Below, piece by piece: positions 464 through 8,132 of a DNA stretch of 64,000 nt. Within the stretch, counting starts at the first letter, position 1. Every line of letters begins with the position of its first letter. This DNA is from Trypanosoma brucei (lineage: Eukaryota). The stretch lies in contig CP000067.1 in assembly GCA_000002445.1 (NCBI GenBank), positions 320,001 through 384,000 of the forward strand, in the 5' to 3' direction. A program made the position numbers and the translations under genes. The notes beneath the pieces are model-generated. The model did no database searches. It was given only the letters and a program-made list of their open reading frames with translations, and was not told the origin of the DNA.

Positions 464-3400
464 CAAATATGTTCATATACATTTCCTCCTACCCAATAAT
501 GTGTTTGCATACATGCTTTTATGCGCGTTCGCACGCGTCCATGTTCTTATTTTTTTTCAGACATGTTGTGTTTCCACGGAAAAAAGTCCAAACCTTGTGA
601 AGTGGTAATGTTATAACGTCTCAAATACTTGTATTTACAGTGTGCGTGTACAAAACAAGTTCTTTCCTGTAGCTTATCTTTCAGAGCTTGTTTGTTATTA
701 TAAGAATTGCTAAAGTTTGTAAGGTATGAAATTGAAGCATTGGTAGTGGTAGTGTCTCTTGGCTGCCGCGTTACGATGTTTCCTCTGGGGTCATAGCGTG
801 GATGTGTTTCCCGCGTGGGATCATACCATGAGGAAGCATCGTAAACATATGGGTAACACCTTCTTCTACGTTTCCGGTACCATCCCTAACTGTTTTCGAG
901 GAACGCCGATGCAAGAAGTAGCAGTTTTTAGCTGCCCTGTCTAAATGTGTTGAAAGCGATGCATTGGCTAAATGACTGTGGACGGTGGGTTGGAGAACGA
1001 TGAACATGGTTGGTAAAGGGGGCTTGGAGTGCCTCCTGAGCGAGCTGACAAGTCTGGATATTTCGCTAAGTGTATCGATAGAATCCAAGACAGTTTTCGG
1101 GGAGAGGTATATCTAGTCTCTTTTCCAAGCTAGAAGAATTTGAAAATGAAAAAGACAATTACTACGCGTACAAATGTACATAAAAGGAACAGTCGTTCGA
1201 TTCTTCCTGTTTCTTTCCTCAACGTAAAAGCAATGGATCTTATTGACGTCACACTTATGTGGGGAAATCATTATTCAGGTGCTGCCGTTGGTATCTCTCA
1301 GGTATGTTCGTGGAAGTTGGAAGAACGATGCAGTAGAAAAGAGTGGTTTATAACGGCATTGCATTGTGAGCGATGTAGCCAAGTTTTGTACTTAAAAGGC
1401 GATGTGAGGTATCACCCATACCTCCGTAGCAGCCTTTTATGCTAGTTTACCGCATTTGAACGTGGTCTCATAGCTGTGGCGGAAGGGAGGGCAATCTGTT
1501 GGCACAAATGGGAAAATGTTGCCATTCTCTTGCTAATATTCTGTTTTCCCATTAAGCTCATTCATGAAGGCGAGACCCACGTCGTATTTATTATTATGTC
1601 CGAAACGAAGCATAAGACTAATTTTTTATCTATCATTCAAATCTTCCACGCACCAAGAGCTGGCAATGGTTCTACCCCATTTTTTTTTTTGTTGTTGTGG
1701 CCCAAGCCTTGAAAGCCTTTTCGAAATCACACCGTGCAGGAGGAAACCCTTCATTTCATCCACCACTATTTTCGTTTTGAGCTGGGTGAGTTCCACTTTA
1801 AGCGTCAAATACAGGAGGCAACTTTGTCATAATCTTCTGCCGTTGCTGCGCCGTTTCGCGTAAAGTTACGGCAGGATTTCCCTTTGTTTTCTTAATGCTA
1901 CCATGCAAGATTGAAACATTATGTTTAATCGTAAGTGAAAAGACGTCAAACTTATGATCCGCAAGGCAAATTTCACTGTGCGCCAGTCTGTTAATATTGA
2001 CTATACAAGAAACACTCGTTAGAACCATAGGCGTAAGTACAGTATTAATGTAACAACTAAGAGCTATTAATAGCACCCAGAGCCCTCGGAAAGATTGAGG
2101 TCAGAAACCTATCCGCCGAAAAAAACACTCCGCATCCCAAAGCAATGTAAAAAAAAAAAAAAACATTTTCCGTATTCGTTTTTTTTTCCAGAGCATTCCA
2201 TTTTAGGCATGTTTCGCGGTCATTTTGTCTCGCATGCGACTCCGAACGGCCTCACGTCACCTCCTCAAGGATAAGTTGTCTAATTGGCGGTGGTTACGTA
2301 TTTTAGTTTCGCCTCTTCTCGCCACTCAGAACAAGCGATACTTGAAAGTGTGGGATGCCAAACAGTAGATGACAACCAATGGCATCCGTAGCGTCCTTCA
2401 GTATTCGGCGTTGGAGAGTTCCACTCTCCCATGCCCCTGTGGTTATGCCGGCCACCTCAACGTGGTGCCAGGGTCCAGTACCCCGTCTCATCAGGGGAAG
2501 CCAAGAGCCAGCAGCGTTCCTTTCATGGGGAACACTGCTTTGCTCCGGCTACGGCATCAAAAAGCACAGGGATCAGCAGCGTCTTTCTGGGACACCGTTT
2601 TTCATTTGTTGGTCCCTGGGCACGTGTTCTAGTGCTGTCGGCGGCGGAGCTTTAGAGGCCACAAACCTTAGGATCCAAGCGTTTCTACTCACACTACATT
2701 CATCCCCCGTATACGTCAAATCCGCTTTGGGAACCCTCATTGAAAGAAGCAGCTCCAAGATCCAAAGCGGCTTGAGCGTCACGCCCTCGGCATCCGGCGC
2801 CACAGTGGGATTCTTCAATTTCGTTTGACGTATCACTATTGTGGACCTTGATTGCTTTTCTTTTGGTAGGCGGGAGGGCAGTCACTAAAAGTTTAAAAGT
2901 TTCATTCATCCACTTTTTGAGGGTCGTTTTGTAAGTGAGCCTTTCCCTCCGTCGGATGGCGTTGTTCTTCGACCTCCCTCCGAAGCGGCTGTTGACTAAC
3001 CCCTTTAAGTTTGGTATTTTTCTGTCTGATGCCGGGGACTAAACCCCCTTTTGGCACCGGAAACAGGCACTGTCACATACAGAATAGCTTGGGACGTCGG
3101 CTAAATCACGCTGTTTACACCACACACACCCCCAACGAGTTGCAGAACTGTTTCTTCACCTTTGCGCCGCTCTGTCTATTGAAGCGAAACCCACCTTCCT
3201 TTTTCCATGCAGGGAGGCGGTGACGGATGAGCACTTTTCATTACCTTATACATTCGGGGGTTAACGGAAACACCAAACAAAGTCCTTCCATGTTTATTGT
3301 CTAATTTTTGTGTGGCAGTCCACTCCGACGTTCCACTCCCTATGATATGTAGTATCGAGGGATGCCTCTGTTTTGTTATTCCTTATCTTTCACGTAATTT

Positions 3401-6181: not shown

Positions 6182-8132
6182 CTGACTGCCGCAGTAGTCG
6201 GGAGACTTGTTATATGTGCCGCTGGTCACGCGACTGCTCGGTTGTCAAACATCGTCTATTGAGAGTCGTGCGGTTCCTTATCTTCTTTATTGTTAACCCG
6301 GCTCTGGCCTTCCTCCCTGGCAAGTTGGGCCGCAAACGGACCGCCCGCGTTTGGTTGGGACACCGTCTTTTTTCTGTACGTATTTCTTGATTAACCGCAC
6401 ATGAAGACAATGTGGTAGCCGCGGCACTTATAGCTGATTGGTGAATATTGTTCCGCGGACAGCGGCACACTGGGTTCCGGTGCCGTCGTCCCGGAAGTCT
6501 ATAATGAGTCGGGGGCGCGTAGGTGTTGGAGACGAGGCCGCGCAGAAAAAGAAGCAGTGACAGAGAGGCTGGCGCAAAATGTTGAGTGTATGTTTTTGGA
6601 AGAATAGAAATTTCACTGGCTACTGCACTTCTGATGGGTGTTGTTCTTCCTTGAGTTTCTGCTTTGCGAGATTTCAGGGGTTGCGGGTAATCTTATTTTA
6701 TGTGGAAATGTTTCCTTGAAACAATTCTATCGCCTCTCCGTGTGATTTCAATAGGGAATAAGGATGTGGATTTGTGACGAGGTGACACCTCTGTTGTTTT
6801 CTTTCCTGTGTGGGGAGTGACAGGGCGTTCTTCACCGCAACACGTCACAACAAAAGAATATCAACACAACATTGGAGAGTTTGAGTTTCTTTGTAACGTT
6901 TATGGGATCGCCCAGGCGAGGGCACCGAAACACCAATTTAGGGACAAAAAAGTTAGAGGATGAGATTAAGAAAAAGTTTGAAGCAGTGGTGAATAAGACG
7001 AATGAGGATGAAGATGAGTCCGCTGGAGAACGAACCTCGCGTTAAAATGTCGAGGAGTCGTGGGAAAAGGCGAAAGTATTGAAGGAGGAGGCTGGGGACG
7101 AACAGGAAAAATGAGCTACAAGAGAGCCGAGAATGTGACAAGAGTAGTATACGGAGGCATTGCAGATGAAATGGAAAATATGAACGTATCAACCTAAGAT
7201 ACTATGGAGGATAACAACGCCACGGTGTTCAAGAGCAGCGGTAGCGGTCCGGTCTTTACTTCGGTGCAAAAGTCGCGGTAATCAACCCCTTAAAACCAGG
7301 GGCAGCCCCTTTTTCCCCTTTTCTTTTCCATAGTTCCCCACACGTGCGTCTGTTGGTGTTGGCTTCTCACATCCTGTTGAGTCCGCGCGCGGAAAACAAA
7401 TAGATGCGTACCCACATACGCCGCAACGATGCATCTGAGGGACAAGTTGCTGATCCCTATTGATTACGACACGCTCGAGGGTAATTTTGCATTTATACTG
7501 AACGCTCTCCGAATCCCTTTCTCGAATGAATGGCTGGCTGCTTCTGCCCATTGACACATGCGCGAAGCTTTTGTTTTCTCTTTGAGTCTCGTTTCCCCCC
7601 TCGCTTCCTCTTAGCAGTTGTTATTTTTCCGCACATCAGCATCATACGCATCCCACCAGCTTTGATGTATCCAACCGGAGACAATTTCTTTTGTTGTTTT
7701 TTGTGTGTCGAATCGCCTCACCGGCGTCAGGTTCCTTCTGCTTCTTCACATTCGCCTCCTCTCTTCACCCCTTCTCGACTGAAACCTATGTGGGTCAGTC
7801 AAACTTTCTACCAAATAATAACAATAAAAATGAGGGCACATACCGAGACCACCGTGCTAAGAAGAAGAGATACGAAGATATGATGAACCCCAAATCTGAG
7901 CATTGTGGCAGCGACTCAGGCATGTGCATGGGATAAGTTTTAGTTTTTTTTTGTTGTGGGTGCAGCTATTCACTTACCATTCTCTTTTCAGTTTCCTCTA
8001 TATTCAGCAACGTTATGATTATTCTTTTCTTTTCTTTTCCATTTTTTTTTTTCAAAGTTAAGCCTTACCTTTTCCCTCCCTCTTCTCCCGTCCCCTCCTG
8101 GTGTTAAAAAATTACAATATTCCAATTAGCAT

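What the first reader, a model, noticed from the sequence alone, without database searches (positions are those of the whole stretch)
464..8132. ~7.7-kb gene-poor convergent strand-switch / termination region
Only one doubtful plus-strand ORF end lies to the left, and every real gene to the right is on the minus strand, with its 3' end facing the tRNA cluster. So this interval is probably a convergent termination site. In T. brucei such sites carry base J and H3.V/H4.V and often host tRNA genes. The region also holds homopolymer C tracts (~3400-3411, ~3904-3913, ~5683-5692) and an A16 run (2149-2164).
Basis: inference. Interest (0 to 1): 0.5.

Follow-up and report, generated by a model that had tools for sequence, protein, structure and literature searches.

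The report
Known trypanosome transcription stop with U6/tRNA genes
This is the already-catalogued transcription-termination gap on Trypanosoma brucei chromosome 4 that holds the U6 snRNA gene and two tRNA genes; it only looks 'convergent' because some strains carry an extra ESAG1 gene cassette there, so it is ordinary with a small evolutionary twist.

Summary
The window is T. brucei TREU927 chromosome 4, 320,001-384,000, so the interval is chr4:320,464-328,132. A plus-strand ORF ends at 463, and every ORF of 200 aa or more from 8133 to 64000 is on the minus strand. The 7.7-kb gap is about 16 times the median intergenic gap.

- the U6 snRNA gene (5763-5861, minus strand), whose promoter is the divergent tRNA-Thr 104 bp upstream;
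- an annotated orphan CDS, Tb927.4.1210 (3947-4501, minus strand), which evolves neutrally.

Published work already lists the site as a convergent termination region: cSSR chr4:320,899-323,164, and cTTR_69 bound by Pol III/TTR factors.

Comparison adds a correction. In T. b. gambiense and T. equiperdum IVM-t1 the ESAG1 segment is absent, and the next genes lie on the same strand. T. vivax and Leishmania keep a compact tRNA island directly after PEX1. In Leishmania that island sits inside a co-directional gene array.

So the ancestral feature is a Pol III island at a head-to-tail boundary. The convergence comes from a strain-variable ~4.4-kb ESAG1 segment bracketed by ~200-bp direct repeats. 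Already known; low interest.

The parts
2..463 (+). 3' 153 codons of ESAG1 (Tb927.4.1200). This is the only plus-strand gene flanking the interval. The frame is open from the window edge to the stop at 461-463.
   Evidence: Pfam PF03238 ESAG1, E=2.3e-65, profile positions 85-227 of 227. PMC9241505 names Tb927.4.1200 as ESAG1. The frame is intact in T. equiperdum OVI too, but the CDS is about 23% diverged there while the flank is about 99.7% identical.
1..2444 (.). Right-hand part of a strain-variable ESAG1 segment, about 4.4 kb in TREU927. It is present in TREU927, Lister 427 and T. equiperdum OVI. It is absent from T. b. gambiense DAL972 and T. equiperdum IVM-t1.
   Evidence: Collinearity of DAL972 and IVM-t1 with the window stops at 2445. 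OVI follows the window down to position 54. The tRNA-Pro to U6 distance is 7782 bp in 927 and 8284 bp in 427, against about 3.4 kb in DAL972 and IVM-t1. Window 1-862 is 71% identical to an ESAG1 paralogue plus its flank in a subtelomeric locus.
2445..2643 (.). Right copy of a ~200-bp imperfect direct repeat that brackets the ESAG1 segment. It includes a copy-specific divergent patch at about 2538-2613.
   Evidence: OVI contig L014 2806-3002, lying 88 bp from tRNA-Pro, is 82.5% identical to window 2642-2445. Alignment A2 shows that DAL972 and IVM-t1 have a single copy. There are 33 substitutions in the 2500-2749 bin, against 0-9 in the other bins to the right of the junction.
3947..4501 (-). 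Tb927.4.1210, an annotated 184-aa 'T. brucei spp.-specific' hypothetical CDS. The open frame extends to 4753 or beyond. It is probably not a constrained protein gene.
   Evidence: Exact match to XP_844271.1 / AAZ10712.1. A search of 1.84 billion representative proteins returned only its own T. brucei-group cluster representative. No Pfam hit. pN/pS is 1.39 (9 non-synonymous, 2 synonymous) against DAL972, versus 0.10-0.26 for PEX1.1220 and .1230. However, the stop-free run of 291 codons was reached in only 0.2% of 500 shuffles.
3401..3412 (+). C12 tract, which is G12 on the sense (minus) strand.
   Evidence: One of the only three C/G runs of 9 or more in the 64 kb.
3903..3912 (+). C10 tract.
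   Evidence: G runs of 7, 11 and 8 lie in the corresponding U6-to-tRNA-Pro stretch of DAL972, so the tracts appear conserved with length variation.
5684..5692 (+). C9 tract, about 70 bp downstream of the U6 3' end.
5763..5861 (-). U6 snRNA gene (Tb927.4.1213), transcribed by Pol III. Its 3' end is a T4 run.
   Evidence: Rfam RF00026, 62.3 bits, E=2.6e-13, full model, 5763-5858. The TREU927 annotation 325767..325860 equals window 5767-5860. The 5' end is uncertain by about 4 nt.
5958..6029 (+). tRNA-Thr(CGT) (Tb927.4.1216), divergent from U6. Box A is at 5965-5975 and box B at 6008-6018. These serve as the extragenic U6 promoter. A T6 terminator lies at 6033-6038.
   Evidence: ARAGORN and Rfam, 65.2 bits. 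Box A starts 104-107 bp upstream of the U6 5' end, read. The published spacing is about 104 bp (PMC4950102). Terminator strings match the supplement of PMC2695483.
6097..6181 (-). tRNA-Tyr(GTA) with intron (Tb927.4.1219). A T5 terminator lies at 6091-6095 on the minus strand.
   Evidence: ARAGORN and Rfam, 57.8 bits. Coordinates match 326098..326181.
8133..8915 (-). Last solid gene of the long minus-strand polycistronic unit: a 260-aa LRR protein (Tb927.4.1220 by position). Its 3' end is 1951 bp from tRNA-Tyr.
   Evidence: Pfam LRR_4 and LRR_EndoS, E about 5e-12. pN/pS 0.14. Called as a gene in three other assemblies.

Best explanation
The interval is the known Pol II termination region of T. 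brucei chromosome 4, published as cSSR 320.9-323.2 kb and as cTTR_69. It is built around a Pol III gene island.

Shown here:
- The long minus-strand unit (... RuvBL1, SET, PEX1, .1230, LRR) ends at 8133.
- About 2 kb further on lie tRNA-Tyr, tRNA-Thr and U6.
- U6 is driven by the A and B boxes of the divergent tRNA-Thr, 104 bp upstream. This is the classical trypanosome arrangement.
- The island is old. T. vivax has Tyr-Thr-U6-Pro within about 570 bp, 1 kb after PEX1.
- L. mexicana has a Thr(CGT)/Pro(CGG)-containing tRNA cluster in the intergenic space right after PEX1. There the following genes, including the LicD-like and PDCD2_C orthologues, are on the same strand.
- T. b. gambiense and T. 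equiperdum IVM-t1 also have a same-strand (head-to-tail) arrangement, with an 11-kb gap.
- In TREU927, Lister 427 and T. equiperdum OVI, a ~4.4-4.9-kb segment carrying one plus-strand ESAG1 gene sits between U6 and tRNA-Pro. It is bracketed by ~200-bp imperfect direct repeats. This alone makes the site formally convergent on the U6 side and divergent on the tRNA-Pro side.

Inferred from the literature, not tested here:
- Pol II coming from the right is stopped at or just before the nucleosome-depleted, factor-laden Pol III genes, helped by H3.V/H4.V/base J chromatin.
- Pol II starts again downstream of tRNA-Pro, outside the window in TREU927, to transcribe the LicD/PDCD2 unit.
- Where the cassette is present, ESAG1 would be read by the antisense arm of that bidirectional start region, and its transcription would end against the same island from the other side.
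For: Identity of the locus:
- tRNA and U6 coordinates in the supplement of PMC2695483 equal window coordinates plus 320,000.
- Exact protein matches to Tb927.4.1210, PEX1 and the SET protein.

Strand layout and gap.

Pol III genes. Box A spacing is read and compared with PMC4950102 and PMC2943599.

Published classification and factor binding:
- PMC8559703 text and Table S8: U6, Thr and Tyr are in cTTR_69 and bound by all eight RNAPIII/TTR factors, while tRNA-Pro is outside a TTR.
- PMC4721609 S2 Table lists a cSSR at chr4 320,899-323,164.
- tRNA genes are described as strong stops for Pol II, with bidirectional starts beside them (PMC2936537).
- In L. major, acetylated-H3 peaks lie just downstream of tRNA clusters inside gene arrays (PMC2695483).

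Strain polymorphism.

Same-strand continuation in DAL972 and IVM-t1.

Deep synteny:
-, with the LicD-like orthologue at 45% identity, E=1e-57.
- ESAG1 lies within 5 kb of a Bdf3 (start-region) site (PMC9241505).
- The sense strand is G+T-rich (0.57-0.62) for about 4 kb after tRNA-Pro in DAL972.
Against: - No transcription, histone-variant or base-J data could be examined directly. The termination and restart points are taken from published tables and general models.
- Tb927.4.1210 is annotated downstream of the Pol III genes on the same strand, and its open frame is longer than chance predicts. If it is a real Pol II gene, Pol II must pass or restart after the island, and the true stop would lie at 899-3164, as in Reynolds's table.
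- I did not verify which genome version Reynolds's coordinates refer to.
- The left junction of the ESAG1 segment was seen only in the fragmented OVI assembly, which has N gaps and a suspicious stretch 100% identical to TREU927. It was not seen in TREU927 itself.
- Whether the segment was inserted or was deleted in gambiense and IVM-t1 is unresolved.
- T. theileri has no tRNAs within the 10 kb fetched after PEX1, so the island is not universal.
Confidence: 0.75

Rival explanations
1. This is a plain, ancestral convergent strand-switch region. Two long opposing polycistronic units meet here, and the tRNA genes are incidental passengers.
For: - The window shows a plus-strand ORF end at 463 facing minus-strand genes.
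- The literature labels the site cSSR / cTTR_69.
Against: - The plus-strand side is one ESAG1 gene inside a segment missing from DAL972 and IVM-t1. Beyond it, the genes are again on the minus strand.
- PMC2695483 places tRNA-Pro, 2 kb left of the window, in a 'divergent' SSR.
- L. mexicana has the tRNA island inside a co-directional array. T. vivax has the compact island 1 kb after PEX1.
Confidence: 0.1
2. The interval is not truly gene-free. Tb927.4.1210 is a real Pol II-transcribed gene and the last gene of the minus-strand unit. Pol II therefore passes or restarts after the U6/tRNA island, and the real termination zone is only about 464-3946.
For: - It is annotated in TREU927, DAL972, OVI and IVM-t1.
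- The ORF is kept open in all four assemblies.
- Its stop-free run of 291 codons is matched in 0.2% of 500 shuffles.
- Reynolds's cSSR coordinates (window 899-3164) treat it as the boundary gene.
Against: - No other protein matched in a search of 1.84 billion representatives; the only hit was its own T. brucei-group cluster representative. No Pfam hit.
- There are 9 non-synonymous and 2 synonymous differences against DAL972 (pN/pS 1.39). By my binomial estimate from the counts, an omega of 0.2 has a probability of about 0.005.
- Its nucleotide divergence equals that of the surrounding non-coding DNA.
- Long ORFs also occur on the opposite strand at the same place, which suggests a compositional effect.
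- Staneva's cTTR_69 already covers the Pol III genes upstream of it.
Confidence: 0.15
3. The left part of the interval is an assembly artefact or a core/subtelomere boundary, because ESAG genes normally live in telomeric expression sites. On this view the 'gap' reflects a mis-join.
For: - ESAG1 is typically subtelomeric. The closest retrievable paralogue lies among VSG and LRRP genes.
- The OVI assembly is fragmented here, with N gaps.
Against: - The junction at 2445 is read through in an independent OVI contig that differs from the window by substitutions.
- The Lister 427 long-read assembly has the same enlarged Pro-U6 spacing, and the gene numbering leaves room for two annotated features in between.
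- TREU927 tRNA-Pro lies 2 kb left of the window, as expected for an internal insertion.
- The segment is bracketed by direct repeats.
- Housekeeping genes continue on both sides.
Confidence: 0.03

Closest known systems
T. brucei chromosome 4 termination region: 'cTTR_69' (Lister 427 annotation used by Staneva et al. 2021, PMC8559703) and the cSSR at chr4 320,899-323,164 (Reynolds et al. 2016, PMC4721609, S2 Table)
   Same: This is the same locus. U6 (Tb927.4.1213), tRNA-Thr and tRNA-Tyr are listed in cTTR_69 and bound by RPC1-associated TTR factors. The cSSR coordinates fall inside the interval.
   Different: Nothing structural differs. Those papers treat the site as convergent. None of the papers read here mentions that the convergence depends on a strain-variable ESAG1 segment.
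Head-to-tail ('single') termination regions of T. brucei that coincide with Pol III genes (Siegel 2009, Marchetti 1998 and Maree & Patterton 2014, as summarised in PMC8559703 and PMC2936537)
   Same: In DAL972 and IVM-t1 the locus has exactly this form. A unit ends, a tRNA/snRNA island follows, and the next unit on the same strand starts downstream. tRNA genes are described as strong Pol II stops with start regions beside them.
   Different: In TREU927, 427 and OVI one reverse-oriented ESAG1 gene has been added. Annotation therefore splits the site into a convergent part and a divergent part.
Leishmania major chromosome 3 convergent region, where Pol II from both units terminates at a tRNA gene (Martinez-Calvillo et al. 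2004, cited in PMC2695483)
   Same: A Pol III gene sits at the point where Pol II transcription ends. PMC2695483 reports that 34.6% of T. brucei tRNA loci lie in convergent regions.
   Different: That is a genuine meeting of two long units with a single tRNA. Here there is a four-gene island counting tRNA-Pro, and only one short plus-strand gene.
Trypanosome snRNA genes with a divergent upstream tRNA gene as promoter (Nakaar et al. 1994, 1997: U6 with tRNA-Thr)
   Same: The orientation is divergent. Box A lies about 104 bp upstream of U6 +1, box B is present, and the gene ends in a T run.
   Different: None. This is the type example itself.

Membership tests
Convergent strand-switch region / convergent Pol II termination region of T. 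brucei | Protein-coding genes on opposite strands with their 3' ends facing each other | tested here: met
   ESAG1 (+) ends at 463 and the LRR gene (-) ends at 8133. The feature is met only in strains that carry the ESAG1 segment. It is not met in DAL972 or IVM-t1, where the flanking genes are co-directional.
Convergent strand-switch region / convergent Pol II termination region of T. brucei | No Pol II genes between the two converging units | tested here: inconclusive
   Tb927.4.1210 (3947-4501, -) is annotated inside. It has no matching protein other than its own cluster representative, no Pfam hit and pN/pS of 1.39, yet its ORF is longer than chance predicts.
Convergent strand-switch region / convergent Pol II termination region of T. 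brucei | Enrichment of H3.V, H4.V and base J, and loss of Pol II transcripts on both strands | not testable with these tools
   Only indirect evidence is available. The site is listed among the cSSRs quantified for small RNAs (57.7 RPM in wild type) and as cTTR_69. No ChIP or RNA-seq tracks could be read.
Pol III-associated termination region (RNAPIII/TTR class of Staneva et al. 2021) | tRNA and/or snRNA genes within the termination region | tested here: met
   U6, tRNA-Thr and tRNA-Tyr lie at 5763-6181.
Pol III-associated termination region (RNAPIII/TTR class of Staneva et al. 2021) | Occupancy by RPC1, TBP, BDF7, ELP3b, PHD2, PHD4, TFIIS2-2, DOT1A and TRF | not testable with these tools
   Reported as 'yes' for U6, Thr and Tyr, and as 'only TBP' for tRNA-Pro, in Table S8 of PMC8559703. 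I took this from the paper and did not recompute it.
Head-to-tail termination/re-initiation boundary with Pol III genes | Upstream and downstream Pol II genes on the same strand, separated by a Pol III island | tested here: met
   Met in relatives:
- DAL972 and IVM-t1: LRR -> Tyr/Thr/U6 -> Pro -> LicD-like, PDCD2_C, Ank, all on the same strand.
- L. mexicana: PEX1 -> five tRNAs -> 1884-aa, LicD-like and PDCD2_C genes on the same strand.

In the TREU927 window itself the left unit lies outside the window. It is inferred from the tRNA-Pro position and the 'divergent SSR' label.
Trypanosomatid snRNA gene with divergent tRNA promoter | Divergently oriented tRNA with box A about 104 bp upstream of the snRNA start, box B present, and a T-run terminator | tested here: met
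   The U6 5' end is at 5858-5861. tRNA-Thr box A is at 5965-5975, which is 104-107 bp away, and box B is at 6008-6018. U6 ends in T4. The published spacing comes from PMC4950102. Promoter function was not tested here.
ESAG1 protein family (PF03238) | Significant match to the family profile over its C-terminal part, with an open frame through to a stop codon | tested here: met
   E=2.3e-65 and 220.7 bits against a cut-off of 27, over profile positions 85-227. The N-terminal part lies outside the window. The OVI contig shows the upstream part with a signal-peptide-like start, but it has N gaps.

The most novel reading that the evidence does not exclude
The Pol III island, not convergence, is the actual Pol II terminator, and it works from both sides. 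The presence/absence polymorphism of the repeat-bracketed ESAG1 cassette (TREU927, 427 and OVI with it; gambiense and IVM-t1 without it) would then be a natural experiment. The same ancient island serves as a head-to-tail boundary in some strains and as a convergent terminator in others. A core-genome ESAG1 copy is expressed from the antisense arm of the neighbouring start region and is being overwritten by gene conversion from other ESAG1 copies. The sense-strand G tracts, the only ones of 9 or more in 64 kb, could be part of the stop/restart signal.
Probability: 0.3. Interest if true: 0.4.

Novelty: already known. Interest (0 to 1): 0.22.

Why it matters
The locus is a textbook case, not a discovery. 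It holds the single-copy U6 snRNA gene with its tRNA-borne promoter, inside a termination region that has already been mapped by ChIP-seq and small-RNA-seq.

The useful addition is a caution. Labels such as 'convergent' or 'divergent' strand-switch region in T. brucei reference annotations can come from a single strain-specific gene inserted at an older head-to-tail boundary. Metagene analyses that pool 'cSSRs' may therefore mix different architectures.

The cassette polymorphism also offers a ready-made comparison between strains. It could be used to ask whether gene orientation matters for termination at Pol III islands.

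Tried and rejected
- A permissive Rfam scan of 1-9000 gave only one below-threshold snoRNA hit (sR46, 22 bits against a gathering score of 50, E=0.1), which I treat as noise.
- Pfam on twelve interval ORFs found nothing.
- The repeat search found only A/T-run matches.
- An exhaustive HMMER search with the 268-aa ORF found only itself.
- The homologue search with the ESAG1 fragment returned one 58%-identical fragment. No TREU927 ESAG1 protein record could be retrieved, so I could not confirm that Tb927.4.1200 is full length.
- The TREU927 record is not in the contig look-up. The left junction therefore had to be taken from a fragmented OVI contig.
- I looked for a remnant in T. 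brucei of the 1884-aa Leishmania gene that follows the tRNA island. None was found.
- I considered a retroposon (RIME/ingi) origin because of the A15 run. I found no reverse-transcriptase or other Pfam signal, and no reference element sequence was available to compare, so this stays untested.
- The bacterial promoter/terminator scan was not used because it does not apply to trypanosomes.
- Siegel 2009, Marchetti 1998 and Nakaar 1994 are not held in the library. I cite them only through papers that quote them.
- My recollection that G runs mark T. brucei start regions could not be checked and is not used as evidence.

Full report
**Where the window comes from.** Three minus-strand ORFs match T. 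brucei proteins exactly: Tb927.4.1230 (in its 331-aa form), PEX1 and a SET-domain protein. The SET protein match is to TREU927 only. The supplement of Padilla-Mejia et al. 2009 (PMC2695483) gives these TREU927 chromosome 4 coordinates:
- U6 snRNA Tb927.4.1213 at 325767..325860 (complement)
- tRNA-Thr(CGT) at 325958..326029
- tRNA-Tyr(GTA) at 326098..326181 (complement)

In the window the two tRNAs lie at 5958-6029 and 6098-6181. The window is therefore Tb927 chr4:320,001-384,000, and the finding covers 320,464-328,132. The terminator strings listed for the two tRNAs in that supplement also match the window sequence.

**Check of the observation.**
- A plus-strand frame that is open from the window edge stops at 461-463.
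- From 8133 to 63949 every ORF of 200 aa or more that is not nested in a longer one is on the minus strand.
- The first ten of these I scanned include an LRR protein, PEX1, RuvB-like/TIP49, a TPR protein and others.
- Intergenic gaps between these ORFs have a median of 464 bp and a maximum of 2820 bp. The 7669-bp interval is far outside that range.
- Homopolymers are present with small corrections: A15 at 2149-2163 (not A16), C12 at 3401-3412, C10 at 3903-3912 and C9 at 5684-5692.
- These three C tracts are the only C or G runs of 9 or more in the 64 kb. All are C on the plus strand, which is G on the sense strand of the long unit.
- G runs of 7, 11 and 8 lie in the corresponding stretch of T. 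b. gambiense, so the tracts appear conserved with length changes.

1. The 'doubtful' ORF is the C-terminal 153 residues of an ESAG1 protein (PF03238, E=2.3e-65). Tb927.4.1200 is named as ESAG1 in PMC9241505, where it is listed among genes within 5 kb of a Bdf3 site.
2. The interval contains the U6 snRNA gene (Rfam 62.3 bits, full-length, 5763-5858, minus strand).
   - It is divergent from tRNA-Thr.
   - Box A of the tRNA (5965-5975) starts 104-107 bp from the U6 5' end (5858-5861).
   - The published spacing for trypanosome snRNA genes that use an upstream tRNA as promoter is about 104 bp (PMC4950102; PMC2943599).
3. The ORF at 3947-4501 (minus strand) is the annotated Tb927.4.1210, a 'T. brucei spp.-specific protein'.

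**Is Tb927.4.1210 a real gene?**

Against:
- No protein other than its own T. brucei-group cluster representative matched among 1.84 billion representatives.
- It has no Pfam hit.
- Compared with the gambiense copy it has 9 non-synonymous and 2 synonymous differences (pN/pS 1.39). PEX1, the LRR gene and .1230 give 0.10, 0.14 and 0.26.
- With those site counts, an omega of 0.2 would give 9 or more non-synonymous changes out of 11 with a probability of about 0.005 (my binomial estimate).

For:
- The stop-free run of 291 codons was reached in only 0.2% of 500 dinucleotide shuffles of the interval.
- The frame is open in all four assemblies.

Long ORFs also sit on the opposite strand at the same spot, so local composition may explain part of this. 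I regard it as probably not a constrained protein gene, but the question is open.

**Published status of the locus.**
- Staneva et al. 2021 (PMC8559703) state that eight RNAPIII/TTR-associated factors are enriched at U6 (Tb927.4.1213).
- Their Table S8 lists U6, tRNA-Thr and tRNA-Tyr of Lister 427 (Chr4_core 246,708-247,129) in 'cTTR_69' with factor overlap 'yes'. tRNA-Pro(CGG) at 238,353-238,424 is outside any TTR, with 'only TBP'.
- Reynolds et al. 2016 (PMC4721609), S2 Table, lists a cSSR at chromosome 4, 320,899-323,164. Its small-RNA level is 57.7 RPM in wild type and does not rise in the H3.V knockout.
- If those are TREU927-type coordinates, this is window 899-3164, the stretch between ESAG1 and Tb927.4.1210. 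I did not verify the genome version.

The site is thus already catalogued as a convergent termination region.

**Strain comparison.** I fetched the orthologous loci through exact protein look-ups.
- T. b. gambiense DAL972 and T. brucei equiperdum IVM-t1 are collinear with the window from about 20 kb down to position 2445 (98.6% identity). They then continue with different sequence: 88 bp, tRNA-Pro(CGG), and several kb without called genes.
- T. equiperdum OVI follows the window down to position 54.
- In TREU927 tRNA-Pro lies at 317,914-317,985, about 2.0 kb left of the window.
- The distance from tRNA-Pro to U6 is 7782 bp in TREU927, 8284 bp in Lister 427 and about 3.4 kb in DAL972 and IVM-t1.
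- TREU927, 427 and OVI therefore carry an extra segment of about 4.4-4.9 kb that holds ESAG1.
- Extending the DAL972 and IVM-t1 loci shows that the next genes beyond tRNA-Pro are on the same strand as the PEX1/LRR unit. They are LicD-like (203 aa), PDCD2_C (335 aa) and ankyrin (339 aa). The gap from the LRR stop to the LicD-like start is about 10.9 kb.
- This agrees with PMC2695483, which places the single tRNA locus chr04-I in a 'divergent' region. By its listed position in the supplement, that locus is tRNA-Pro.

**Junctions of the ESAG1 segment.**
- A second OVI contig, reached through the LicD-like protein, shows the left junction.
- After the rest of ESAG1 and its upstream region comes a ~200-bp stretch. 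It is 82.5% identical to window 2642-2445. Then come 88 bp and tRNA-Pro, after which the contig is collinear with DAL972 (98.3%).
- The segment is thus bracketed by ~200-bp imperfect direct repeats. DAL972 and IVM-t1 have one copy.
- This explains a patch I had noted earlier. Window 2500-2749 has 33 substitutions against DAL972 and IVM-t1, where the other bins to the right of the junction have 0-9. The patch (about 2538-2613) is specific to the right-hand repeat copy.
- The pattern fits integration of a donor carrying a diverged homologous stretch by a single crossover. It equally fits loss of the segment by recombination between the repeats. I cannot tell which.
- The OVI contig has N gaps and a 322-bp stretch identical to TREU927 next to a 92.7%-identical stretch, so it should be used with care.

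**Deeper synteny.**
- In T. vivax, PEX1 is followed after 1 kb by tRNA-Tyr (+), tRNA-Thr (-), U6 (+) and tRNA-Pro (+) within about 570 bp. The order and orientation are the same as in T. brucei.
- In L. mexicana, PEX1 is followed by tRNA-Asn, tRNA-Leu, tRNA-Thr(CGT) (all -), then tRNA-Pro(CGG) and tRNA-Asn (+), in a 1.7-kb intergenic space.
- After that come a 1884-aa gene, the LicD-like orthologue (45% identity, E=1e-57) and PDCD2_C, all on the PEX1 strand.
- There is no U6 in the fetched L. mexicana locus. PMC2695483 places the L. major U6 gene in a different cluster, chr24-II.
- T. theileri has GP63 genes after PEX1 and no tRNAs within 10 kb.
- The Thr(CGT)/Pro(CGG) pair after PEX1 is therefore older than the Trypanosoma-Leishmania split. 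It sits within a co-directional gene array.
- T. brucei has since added lineage-specific DNA around it: .1230, the LRR gene, .1210 and 3.4 kb between U6 and tRNA-Pro. Some strains have added ESAG1 as well.

**Mechanism.**

Shown:
- the gene layout;
- the Pol III genes and their promoter geometry;
- the strain polymorphism and the synteny.

Taken from the literature:
[quoted passage not shown] They coincide with a subset of termination regions and are proposed to block advancing Pol II (PMC8559703).
- tRNA genes were described as strong stops for Pol II, with intrinsically bidirectional start regions next to them (PMC2936537).
- In L. major, acetylated-H3 peaks lie just downstream of tRNA clusters inside gene arrays (PMC2695483).

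Inferred:
- Pol II from the right ends between the LRR gene and the island.
- It restarts left of tRNA-Pro. In DAL972 the sense strand there is G+T-rich (0.57-0.62) for about 4 kb.
- ESAG1, where present, is read from the antisense arm of that start region and ends against the island. Its proximity to a Bdf3 site is consistent with this.

None of the inferred steps could be tested with sequence tools.

**Verdict.** It needs three corrections:
- the left ORF is a good ESAG1;
- a U6 gene and an annotated orphan CDS lie inside the interval;
- the convergent geometry is a secondary, strain-variable overlay on an ancient Pol III island at a head-to-tail boundary.

Interest is low. The cassette polymorphism and the mosaic ESAG1 are modest side observations.

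Noticed in passing
window 54-520 (ESAG1 coding part) versus 600-2476: Between TREU927 and T. equiperdum OVI the ESAG1 coding sequence differs at about 103 positions (~23%), yet the frame is open in both. The 1.9 kb downstream is about 99.7% identical. This looks like gene conversion from other ESAG1 copies, or strong diversifying selection, at a chromosome-internal ESAG1.
   Followed up: partly
window 2445-2643 and L014 2806-3002: About 200-bp imperfect direct repeats (82.5% identity) bracket the ESAG1 segment. The right copy carries a ~75-bp patch (2538-2613) that is roughly 40% diverged from the single copy of DAL972 and IVM-t1. Whether the event was an insertion or a deletion is unresolved.
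   Followed up: partly
window 3401-3412, 3903-3912, 5684-5692: The only three C/G homopolymers of 9 or more in 64 kb all lie between U6 and the ESAG1 junction. All are G on the sense strand. G runs of 7, 11 and 8 lie in the corresponding stretch of DAL972. Whether they play any role in stopping or restarting Pol II is unknown.
   Followed up: partly
L008 13001-16500 (T. b. gambiense, downstream of tRNA-Pro; outside the window in TREU927): About 4 kb with sense-strand G+T of 0.57-0.62, against 0.44-0.56 elsewhere in the locus, lies just upstream of the LicD-like gene. This is a candidate Pol II start region.
   Followed up: no
L009 16825-17556 (-) and 21286-22017 (+) (T. vivax): Two identical inverted copies of a 244-aa ORF lie downstream of the T. 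vivax tRNA/U6 island. The ORF has no Pfam hit on record and no similarity to the T. brucei or Leishmania genes at that position.
   Followed up: no
L014 1-322 versus 334-635 (T. equiperdum OVI contig CZPT02001859.1): The first 322 bp are 100% identical to window 477-156. The next block overlaps the same ESAG1 region at 92.7% identity, and the contig contains 42 N bases. This is probably an assembly join of two ESAG1 versions or reference-derived fill. The contig also holds two tandem ESAG1 N-terminal fragments.
   Followed up: no
L013 13636-14712 (T. b. gambiense, 766-aa gene left of the ankyrin gene): Many offset BLAST matches at 30-bp steps point to a long 30-bp tandem repeat inside a coding sequence.
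   Followed up: no
window 37594-40413: This is the largest gap (2820 bp) between ORFs of 200 aa or more inside the minus-strand unit. I did not examine it for small genes or RNAs beyond the whole-window Rfam scan, which found nothing there.
   Followed up: no
window 7530-7883 (+): A 117-aa ORF in the LRR gene's downstream region is called as a gene in the DAL972 annotation but not elsewhere. It has no Pfam hit and its exact sequence is not in the protein collection. It is probably spurious.
   Followed up: partly
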